This document shows positions 27,036 to 28,480 of a stretch of DNA of 64,000 bases, in pieces. Numbering within the stretch: the stretch's first letter is position 1; each line of letters starts with the position of its first letter. This DNA comes from Mobula hypostoma. Its lineage: Eukaryota. The DNA lies in assembly GCF_963921235.1 (NCBI RefSeq), contig NC_086097.1, forward strand, positions 87,918,001 to 87,982,000. The letters are read 5' to 3'. The notes under the pieces are model-generated. The model searched no databases, was not told the DNA's origin, and saw only the letters and a list, made by a program, of their open reading frames with translations. Made by a program: the position numbers and the translations under genes.

Positions 27036-28480
27036 CATGGGTGAGGGCATCATTGATGACAGCAGAAGCAGACAGAGGAACTGGGAATAGGGAATGGCAT
27101 CTTTGCATGTGGTGGGATGGGAAGAGGTAGTTATGAGAGTCAGTGGGCTTGTAGAAGATGTCAGTGGACAGTCTGTCTCCAGAGATGGAGACCGAGAGAT
27201 CGAGAAAGGGGAGAGAAGTGTCCGAGATAGACCAAGTGAATTTGAGGGCTGGGTGGAAGTTAGAAGTAAAGTCGATGAAATTGACGAGCTCAGCATGGGT
27301 GCAGGTTCCTCCGTCTCCGCCGCATCTGCTCCGAGGATGAGGTTTTCCGTTCCTGGACATCTCAAATGTCCTCTTTCTTTAAGGATCGTGGTTTCCCTTC
27401 TGCTGTCATCAATGATGCCCTCACCCGCATCTCCTCCATTTCCCGCGCTTTGGCTCTCACCCCATCCTCCCGCCACCACAACAGGGACAGAGTTCCCCTT
27501 GTCCTCACCTACAACCCCACCAGCCTCCGGATCCAACACATTATCCTCCGCAACTTCCGCCACCCTCAACAGGACCCCACCACTAAGCACATCTTTCCCT
27601 CTCCACCCCTCTCCGCCTTCTGCAGGGATTGGTCCCTCCAGAACTCCCTGGTCCACACGTCCCTCCCCACGGATCTCCCACCCGGCACTTATCCCTGTAA
27701 GCGCAAGTGCTACACCTCCTCTCTTGCCACCATTCAGGGCCCGAAACAGTCCTTCCAGGTGAGGCAACACTTCACTTGTGAGTCTGTTGGGGTCATCTAT
27801 TGCATCCGGTGCTCCCGGTGCAGCCTCCTCTACATCAGTGAAACCCGACACAGATTGGGGGATCGCTTTGTCGAGCATCTCCGCTTCATCCGCCAAAACA
27901 GACAGGATCTTCCAGTAGCCACCCACTTCAACTCTGCTTCTCACTCCCATTCAGATATGTCCATACATGGCCTCCCCTACTGCCATGATGAGGCTAAACT
28001 CAGGTTGGAGGAGCAACACCTCATATACCGTCTAGGTAGTCTCCACCCCCTTGGTATGAACATAGAATTCTCCAACTTCCGGTAATTCCCTCCCCCTCCC
28101 TTCCCCTATCTCTATGTCACTCTGCCCCCTCCCCCAGCTGCCTACCACTTCCCTCTTGGTTCCGCCTCCTTCTACCACCCATTGTGTTTTCCCCTATTCT
28201 TTCTTCACCTTTCTTGCCTATCACCTCCCTGCCTCCCTTCTCCCACCCCTTTATCTTTCCCCTTACTGGATTTTCACCTGAAACCTACCAGCCTTCTCCT
28301 TCCCACCCTCCCCCCATCTTCTTTATAGGGCCTCTGCCCCTTCCCTCTACAGTCCTGACGAAGGGTTCCGGCCCGAAACGTCGACCGATCTTTTCCACGG
28401 ATGCTGCCCGACCTGCTGAGTTCCTCCAGCGTGTTGTGAGTGTTGCTTTAACCCCAGCATCGGCAGAGTATTTTGTGTTT
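27036..28480 (+). mobile_element. Penelope-like retroelement, 5'-truncated, with an inverted 5' segment; RT C-terminus/linker and GIY-YIG endonuclease
   Basis: ORF 27366..28085 contains RVPLVLTY, VIYCIRCSRCSLLYISETRHRLGDRFVEH and GMNIEFSNFR*. Minus segment 27036-27305 encodes FHPALKFT...LPFLDLSV...IFYKPTDSHNYL (PLE RT). Followed by a pyrimidine-rich tail and a hammerhead motif. Confidence 0.93.
28350..28387 (+). ncRNA. Minimal type I hammerhead ribozyme motif in a Penelope tail
   Basis: cagtc-CTGACGA-a-GGG(ttccgg)CCC-GAAACGTC-gaccg. Intact core boxes, stem II GGG/CCC, stem I gtc/gac, and helix III reduced to the palindrome ACGT. Predicted cleavage after C28382. Confidence 0.75.

What the first reader, a model, noticed from the sequence alone, without database searches (positions are those of the whole stretch)
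28350..28387. Intact minimal hammerhead ribozyme core in sense orientation inside a host-gene intron
Seen: cagtc CTGACGA a GGG-ttccgg-CCC GAAACGTC gaccg. All conserved hammerhead core nucleotides are present (CUGANGA, GAAA, GUC triplet), with stem II GGG/CCC plus one extra A after A9, a short stem I, and helix III reduced to the self-complementary ACGT. It lies in the tail of a Penelope element, in intron 26718-29043, on the same strand as the SIPA1L-like pre-mRNA. Established: Penelope-like elements carry minimal type I hammerheads that cleave mainly as dimers paired through the palindromic helix III. Inference: the pre-mRNA could be cut after 28382, alone or with another copy as partner, affecting splicing or output of the final exons. 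This is the only copy in the window where both the core and stem II look intact.
Basis: partly seen in the sequence, partly recalled or inferred. Interest (0 to 1): 0.7.

Follow-up and report, generated by a model that had tools for sequence, protein, structure and literature searches.

The report
Penelope-tail hammerhead in SIPA1L1 intron
A complete minimal self-cutting RNA motif is there, but it is the standard tail piece of a very abundant jumping gene (a Penelope-like element) that landed in an intron of a ray's SIPA1L1 gene, and it likely does not cut the host RNA.

Summary
The motif is confirmed at 28355-28382 (C3 to C17), sense to SIPA1L1 of a myliobatiform ray, in intron 26718-29043. 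It is the only one of 7 related copies in the window with an unchanged core. It lies in the 3' repeat of a 5'-truncated, partly inverted, Neptune-type Penelope-like element (27039-28480). Summed contig depth over it is about 10^5 times that of the flanks, which is a rough sign of a huge family.

The regulatory reading is not supported. A lone copy cannot form helix III. In a dimer the cut at 28382 would need a partner's intact core, and the other 6 copies are broken. Folding predicts two locked states: the core paired to its own CGUC, or to the upstream pyrimidine tract. The copy is young, so an intact core is expected without selection (about 0.5). A putative RNA run shows the intron spliced GT..AG. 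Cleavage itself could not be tested.

This scan reported the same thing in four other introns of this genome. Verdict: an ordinary new copy of a published class (Cervera and De la Pena 2014), probably a passenger.

The parts
26603..26717 (+). SIPA1L1 coding exon upstream of the host intron
   Evidence: tblastn of ray SIPA1L1, 93-95% identity; AG/GT ends; spliced contig in X7
26718..29043 (+). Host intron (second-to-last coding intron of SIPA1L1), GT..AG
   Evidence: joint 26715-29042 (cut +2) at depth 125.4 in X7 and 0 in the three other runs
27039..27305 (-). Inverted 5' piece of the Penelope-like element (C-terminal RT region, frameshifted); 27039-27068 is an inverted duplicate of 27397-27426
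   Evidence: tblastn to P0121 residues 107-187 on the minus strand; 30-nt perfect inverted match; opposite-strand joints 27075-27312 in family contigs
27306..28085 (+). Direct piece of the element ORF: RT thumb, linker and GIY-YIG endonuclease, ending at the stop codon; 5'-truncated, linker cysteines partly deleted, YIG reads YIS
   Evidence: 61% identity to shark protein P0121, which has RVT_1 and GIY-YIG; own GIY-YIG score sub-threshold, E 0.095; translation
28086..28349 (+). Pyrimidine-rich 3' untranslated part of the element; its last bases (28336-28347) are predicted to pair with G5-G10.3 of the hammerhead
   Evidence: sequence; pair probabilities 0.5-0.99 in growing-chain folds
28350..28387 (+). 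Minimal type I hammerhead: helix I 28350-54/28383-87 (A.C at pair 4), core 28355-61 and 28375-77, extra A 28362, helix II 28363-66/28371-74, palindrome 28378-81, expected cut site after 28382
28388..28480 (+). Rest of the element's 3' repeat, with what looks like the optional 30-40 nt Penelope tail (about 28445-28480)
   Evidence: 4 of the 6 other copies stop matching at 28442-28460, one at 28421 and one runs to 28480; a paralogous contig in X5 stops at 28480; tail described in PMC8557442 and PMC11167929; the tail assignment is inferred
29044..29125 (+). SIPA1L1 coding exon downstream of the host intron

Best explanation
The motif is the minimal hammerhead in the 3' repeat of a 5'-truncated Penelope-like retroelement inserted sense into a SIPA1L1 intron, and it is likely a passenger that stays uncut while the intron is spliced out. 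Shown: the motif, its place in the element, the element's truncated and inverted build, the family's abundance, and splicing of the intron in a putative RNA run. From the literature: such motifs lack a helix III of their own, cleave weakly and only as dimers or with the element's protein, and are thought to serve processing of tandem element RNA. Inferred: in the pre-mRNA the core is captured first by the upstream pyrimidine tract, or folds back on its own CGUC; no intact tandem partner lies in the window; the copy cannot make its own protein; and the core is intact because the insertion is young.
For: The element context is clear. There are 7 family copies in 64 kb. Summed depth in the hammerhead bin is 3.7 million against 7.5-17 on unique flanks in X1, and similar in X5 and X12 (the tool warns that this is no copy number). 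The monomer off-state G5-G8 paired with C15.2-C17 has probability 0.99. The active dimer scores -10.5 kcal/mol against -22.6 for two monomers. Helix II probability is 0.00-0.22 in context. Signs of youth: 39 CpG in 1175 nt against 716 in 64000, and 68 variable places tallied in X1 (at most about 4.7% of 1442 nt), giving P(13 core positions intact) 0.45-0.67 at 3-6% divergence. The spliced joint has depth 125 against 6-8 for unspliced intron in X7. Literature: a single min-HHR was inactive and dimers were weak (PMC4209133); an anole element's HHR needed its protein and no RNA-seq ends were found at its cut site (PMC11167929); 8 of 9 Xenopus dimer elements did not cleave (bioRxiv 2026.07.22.740005).
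Against: Nearest-neighbour folding ignores the tertiary core and proteins, so it understates active folds. Contigs cannot show RNA ends, and 401 of 416 joints were not shown. Splicing in one run does not exclude partial cleavage. Family RNA appears abundant in X7 (hammerhead bin 94,995 against 125 for the spliced junction), so trans partners exist. The insertion seems to be shared with organism B (weak hint), and the orthologous copy's core there could not be read. Retrozyme homologs are reported as depleted from introns in Xenopus, which hints at some cost of insertion.
Confidence: 0.88

Rival explanations
1. Occasional, unselected cleavage: when the element family is expressed (for example in the germ line), its protein or a second family RNA refolds this copy and a small share of pre-mRNA or excised intron is cut after 28382, without benefit to the host.
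For: The core is intact. Protein-assisted cleavage was shown for the anole element (PMC11167929). Family RNA looks abundant in X7. As an enzyme strand this copy can form 4 bp of helix III and 4-5 bp of helix I with 4 of the 6 other window copies.
Against: Those trans complexes score -8.7 to -10.8 kcal/mol, against -11.3 for this copy's own off-state alone. Protein help was attributed tentatively to binding downstream at the start of the ORF, and only 98 nt of element follow the cut site here (inference). The cut site is 661 nt from the 3' splice site, about 10 s at the 3.5-4.1 knt/min quoted for mammals in PMC10919898.
Confidence: 0.09
2. Domesticated regulator: the host keeps this hammerhead to cut the SIPA1L1 pre-mRNA and tune splicing or output of the last exons, as proposed for the amniote RECK intron hammerhead and shown for the CPEB3 intron ribozyme.
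For: The motif is sense to the gene, intact where 6 of 6 other copies are broken, and possibly retained in a second species. Precedents exist (PMC6155905 passages; PMC10919898 passages).
Against: It has no helix III and a 4-nt loop II, and matches no Rfam hammerhead. It still sits in a whole young insertion, and intactness is expected by chance. Its A.C mismatch in helix I is shared by about half of the family depth in X1 and X5, so it is a subfamily trait and not a local adaptation. No intact partner lies in the window.
Confidence: 0.02
3. Chance look-alike with no ribozyme ancestry.
For: The bare core pattern is not enriched. There is no Rfam hit and no covariation among the 7 window copies.
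Against: The full descriptor with a two-base helix III occurs in 4 of 300 random windows. All four hallmark traits of the published class that can be read in a single copy (core, extra base after A9, G10.1-C11.1, palindrome) are present. The hammerhead bin is the deepest bin of the element in 4 of 4 runs. Ten unrelated loci pair at 35 of 50 free positions against 21.3 shuffled.
Confidence: 0.01

Closest known systems
Minimal hammerheads (min-HHR) of metazoan Penelope-like elements (Cervera and De la Pena 2014, PMC4209133; read parts 1-2 of 4)
   Same: Core, extra base between A9 and G10.1, G10.1-C11.1 pair, palindromic 15.2-16.2 with no loop 3, short helix I, position in the element's terminal repeat, mostly single copies from truncated elements.
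   Different: Host is a ray, which the parts read do not name. Helix II is 4 bp (7-8 bp in Schistosoma). Helix I has an A.C mismatch at pair 4.
Poseidon element PAc of Anolis carolinensis (Frangieh et al. 2024, PMC11167929; read parts 1-2 of 4)
   Same: Vertebrate EN+ Penelope-like element with a terminal-repeat hammerhead and an optional 30-40 nt tail.
   Different: PAc is Poseidon clade and full length. This family carries the cysteine linker of Neptune or Nematis, and this copy is truncated and cannot encode RT.
Intronic type I hammerheads of amniotes (RECK, DTNB and others; PMC6155905 passages)
   Same: Type I hammerhead, sense in a host intron, retroelement ancestry.
   Different: Those are conserved at one site across birds and mammals and have tertiary contacts. 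This one is minimal, sits inside a young repeat copy and has no shown conservation.
Animal non-LTR retrozymes (bioRxiv 10.64898/2026.07.22.740005; read Results part 1, section 15 and Discussion)
   Same: Type I hammerhead derived from a Penelope terminal repeat; reported in one chondrichthyan.
   Different: Retrozymes are non-coding tandem units. This is a single unit attached to ORF remnants, with the nearest family copies about 10 kb away or more.

Membership tests
min-HHR of metazoan Penelope-like elements | Conserved core CUGANGA ... GAAA ... UH | tested here: met
   0 of 11 core positions changed, N17=C
min-HHR of metazoan Penelope-like elements | Extra base between A9 and 10.1, and a G10.1-C11.1 pair | tested here: met
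   A28362; G28363-C28374, pair probability 1.0 in the 38-mer
min-HHR of metazoan Penelope-like elements | Helix III reduced to a palindrome | tested here: met
   ACGT at 28378-28381
min-HHR of metazoan Penelope-like elements | Short helix I (4-5 bp in the Schistosoma families) | tested here: inconclusive
   3 bp, A.C, then 1 bp here; 5 bp in copy 52131; T at 28386 in 47% of depth in X1 and X5 and 99.9% in X12
min-HHR of metazoan Penelope-like elements | Located in the terminal repeat of a Penelope-like element | tested here: met
   270 nt after the GIY-YIG ORF stop; same order in the copies at 50625-51690 and 51652-52204
min-HHR of metazoan Penelope-like elements | Covariation in helices I and II | tested here: inconclusive
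   None beyond shuffles among the 7 window copies (349 of 500 shuffles as high); present across 10 unrelated loci (35 of 50 pairs, 0 of 10000 shuffles), which are not this family
min-HHR of metazoan Penelope-like elements | Self-cleavage as a dimer | not testable with these tools
   Only folding energies; contigs cannot show RNA ends
EN+ Penelope-like element, Neptune type | One ORF with RT followed by a C-terminal GIY-YIG endonuclease | tested here: met
   Relatives P0121, P0127, P0128, P0134 carry RVT_1 and GIY-YIG; both pieces map onto P0121; this copy's own GIY-YIG score is sub-threshold (E 0.095)
EN+ Penelope-like element, Neptune type | CX2-5CxxC zinc-finger-like linker between RT and EN (Neptune and Nematis; PMC8557442 passages) | tested here: met
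   Present in P0121 and P0128 and in the window copy 51062-51532; partly deleted in this copy
EN+ Penelope-like element, Neptune type | 5' truncation with an adjacent inverted 5'-truncated piece | tested here: met
   Inverted 27039-27305 next to direct 27306-28480
EN+ Penelope-like element, Neptune type | RT phylogeny placing it in Neptune rather than Nematis | not tested
   No named reference set was fetched
Domesticated amniote intronic hammerheads (RECK type) | Full type I fold with tertiary contacts, recognised by Rfam hammerhead models | tested here: not met
   No hammerhead family among 12 hits or 4 hits at E<=10; no helix III stem
Domesticated amniote intronic hammerheads (RECK type) | Conserved at the orthologous intron position across distant species | tested here: inconclusive
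   Weak hint of a shared insertion in organism B (98% alike flank); organism C not resolved; the orthologous core is hidden by paralogs
Non-LTR retrozymes | Non-coding tandem units each with a hammerhead | tested here: not met
   Self-comparison of the window shows no tandem unit, and the motif is attached to ORF remnants

The most novel reading that the evidence does not exclude
Sense-strand intact minimal hammerheads, of which this ray genome would hold thousands, are locked by their own pyrimidine tract and CGUC until Penelope protein or family RNA unlocks them. Bursts of transposon expression would then cut many host pre-mRNAs, SIPA1L1 among them, making a transposon-gated brake on host gene output.
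Probability: 0.04. Interest if true: 0.65.

Novelty: new member of a known kind. Interest (0 to 1): 0.1.

Why it matters
As found, it matters little: it is one more copy of a class published in 2014, in a lineage where the family is very abundant. Two searches of the held library found no paper on Penelope hammerheads in cartilaginous fish by those terms, so the ray family may be undescribed in detail. If sense intronic copies did cut host pre-mRNA in vivo, that would answer the open question of whether minimal Penelope hammerheads ever cleave in cells. The abundance of copies in rays makes that testable by strand-bias statistics or cyclic-phosphate sequencing.

Tried and rejected
No whole genome is held, so genome-wide counts and strand bias could not be computed. 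Rfam gave no hammerhead match on the window or on 28250-28500; this is expected for a motif without helix III and is not evidence against it.

An exact ray-like pattern found 0 loci in metagenome contigs. A looser one found 10, none similar to the window by blastn, and 1 of 10 with a Penelope protein hit. The one viral-contig match (L011) has only 2 pairs in helix I and 1 in helix II and was dropped from the pair count.

No listed run is on record as RNA; X7 is a guess, supported by its spliced joint. No RNA ends could be called from contigs. An empty-site joint, a 28081-28353 splice of the element's own intron-like stretch and cryptic exon joints were not among the 15 joints shown of 416; this is no evidence of absence. 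Organism C has no cover at 26916-27004, so presence or absence of the insertion there is open. No target-site duplication is evident.

Lunse, Weinberg and Breaker 2016 is not held; I saw it only as cited in two reviews. Supplements were not read; those of PMC4209133 may list shark or ray motifs. I considered that C28386 is decay in this copy and rejected it, because about half of the family depth in X1 and X5 shares it. One search timed out and was rerun.

Full report
Observation. In hammerhead numbering C3 is 28355, A9 28361, an extra A 28362, G10.1 28363, C11.1 28374, G12 28375, A15.1 28378 and C17 28382. Folding of the 38-mer gives a 4-bp helix II with a U.G pair and a UCCG loop rather than 3 bp and six loop bases. 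Helix I is 3 bp, an A.C mismatch and one more pair. The bare core pattern is not enriched (9 matches against 6.29 expected). A descriptor with both helices finds only this site on either strand; it occurs in 20 of 300 random windows, and in 4 of 300 with the two-base helix III. Rfam has no hammerhead match at E<=10.

Host gene. The exon at 17796 is 100% identical over 62 aa to SIPA1L1 of Hypanus, Hemitrygon and Mobula, so the window is from a myliobatiform ray. Six coding exons map to the + strand between 9169 and 32251. The motif is in the second-to-last coding intron, 26718-29043, 661 nt before its 3' end. In run X7 (RNA by the tool's guess) a contig joins the two exons across GT..AG at depth 125.4, against 6-8 for unspliced intron; the three other runs lack the joint.

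The element. 27306-28085 encodes the end of a Penelope-like ORF, 61% identical to shark protein P0121, whose relatives carry RVT_1 and GIY-YIG. 27039-27305 is the upstream RT piece in inverted orientation, a build described as typical of these elements (PMC8557442 passages). The cysteine linker of Neptune and Nematis elements is present in P0121, P0128 and the window copy at 51062-51532, and partly deleted here; no tree was built. The element ends at 28480. Six more copies of the same tail lie at 9429+, 16928+, 38395-, 50765-, 52131+ and 57806-, and each has at least one core change. Summed contig depth in the hammerhead bin is 3.7 million in X1 against 7.5-17 on the flanks, and it is the deepest bin in 4 of 4 runs. 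The tool warns that depth is no copy number; read roughly, it agrees with 7 copies per 64 kb and points to a family of order 10^5. That this bin is deepest suggests the motif is the part best kept among subfamilies, which would be selection on the transposon rather than on the host (inference).

Why it is intact. The direct piece keeps 39 CpG in 1175 nt against 716 in 64000 for the window, and 1 of the 21 differences that I took inside the element is a CpG decay; 73 further rows were not shown. X1 tallies 68 variable places, at most about 4.7% of the element, with the caveats that only reads at least 90% alike were laid and that X1 was too deep for a full count. At 3-6% divergence 13 core positions stay intact with probability 0.67-0.45. 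The helix I mismatch is not private: T at 28386 makes up 47% of depth in X1 and X5, 61% in X7 and 99.9% in X12. A second individual of organism A carries the insertion (X7 contig 28420-29071, no differences). In organism B the flank contigs stop 28 and 26 nt inside the element, as they do in A on the left side, which is a weak hint that it is shared; this is under the tool's 31-nt bridging rule. Organism C is unresolved.

Could it cut? A monomer cannot close A15.1-U16.1 around two bases. A single Schistosoma motif of this class was inactive, and dimers and trimers were weak (PMC4209133, parts 1-2 of 4). In a double hammerhead helices I and III are exchanged, so the strand cut at 28382 is served by the partner's core (inference from the topology). 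The two sense copies upstream are 11.4 and 18.9 kb away in an earlier intron and have broken cores. Nearest-neighbour folding puts the 38-mer in an off state, G5-G8 paired to C15.2-C17 at 0.99, and scores the active dimer at -10.5 against -22.6 kcal/mol for two monomers. In context the upstream pyrimidine tract pairs with G8-G10.3 as soon as they are made, and helix II probability is 0.00-0.22. These models omit tertiary contacts and proteins. In the anole element the hammerhead cleaved only with the element's protein, was dispensable for insertion in vitro, and left no RNA-seq ends (PMC11167929, parts 1-2 of 4). Eight of 9 Xenopus dimer elements did not cleave (bioRxiv 2026.07.22.740005). The CPEB3 intron ribozyme, which does affect its host, has a half-life of 2-3 min over 9931 nt (PMC10919898 passages); the 661 nt here would be transcribed in about 10 s at the rate quoted there.

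Results against my reading. Family RNA looks abundant in X7 (94,995 against 125 for the spliced junction), so partners exist in trans. As an enzyme strand this copy can form 4 bp of helix III and 4-5 bp of helix I with 4 of the 6 other copies. Xenopus retrozyme homologs are reported as depleted from introns. Contigs cannot show cut ends, and 401 of 416 joints were not displayed. All 3 copies inside the mapped SIPA1L1 span are sense, which shows no avoidance but is a tiny sample.

Covariation. Among the 7 window copies there is none beyond shuffles (73.0% of cells paired against 73.9%), as expected of decaying copies. Ten metagenome loci found by a core pattern pair at 35 of 50 positions not fixed by the pattern, against 21.3 shuffled, with 0 of 10000 shuffles as high (L011 left out). 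They are not ray sequences, and 1 of 10 has a Penelope protein hit, so they support the architecture and not this copy.

Comparison and verdict. The motif meets the sequence hallmarks of the minimal hammerheads of metazoan Penelope-like elements. It fails the test for the domesticated amniote intronic hammerheads and for tandem retrozymes. Searches for Penelope with Mobula, and with cartilaginous fish and hammerhead ribozyme, returned 0 papers, although the bioRxiv survey includes one chondrichthyan. Earlier agents of this scan reached the same reading for four other introns of this genome; those notes are unchecked and are not counted as support. Verdict: a real motif, an ordinary new copy of a known class, and most likely a passenger. 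Interest 0.1.

Noticed in passing
window 28082-28352 (+): GT right at the ORF's last codon and a pyrimidine tract with CAG ending inside the 5' strand of helix I. This resembles the Drosophila virilis Penelope intron, whose 3' end maps to helix I. The GT is absent from the copies at 51065 and 51825, and no such joint was among the 15 shown.
   Followed up: partly
window 28353-28435 (+): Possible cryptic exon over the hammerhead (acceptors after 28137, 28328 or 28352; donor GTGAGT at 28436). Lengths 298, 107 and 83 nt would all shift the SIPA1L1 frame. Not seen among the joints shown.
   Followed up: partly
window 28357-28360 with 28379-28382: With C at position 7 the core is exactly complementary to the cleavage strand and locks the monomer in a hairpin; copy 52131 folds the same way. 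It could be a built-in off state of this subfamily.
   Followed up: partly
window 50625-52204: A second Penelope-like insertion of another subfamily, built as an inverted pair (50692-51210 and 51680-52204, 93% alike), with a broken hammerhead at each end.
   Followed up: partly
window 11807-14627 (-), 45936-47830 (+), 53467-57150: LINE remnants with long RT and endonuclease frames (CR1-like by recalled motifs, not searched); the first lies antisense in a SIPA1L1 intron.
   Followed up: no
window 25502-25809 and 61260-61548: Two 89% alike copies of a repeat with a tRNA-like head (Rfam tRNA 26.3 bits at 61264-61331), probably a tRNA-derived SINE.
   Followed up: no
window 24056-24211 and 63540-63740: Older Penelope remnants: an endonuclease piece and an RT piece.
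   Followed up: no
window 62521-62646 and 61671-61745: Long inverted-repeat hairpins that give sub-threshold microRNA model hits.
   Followed up: no
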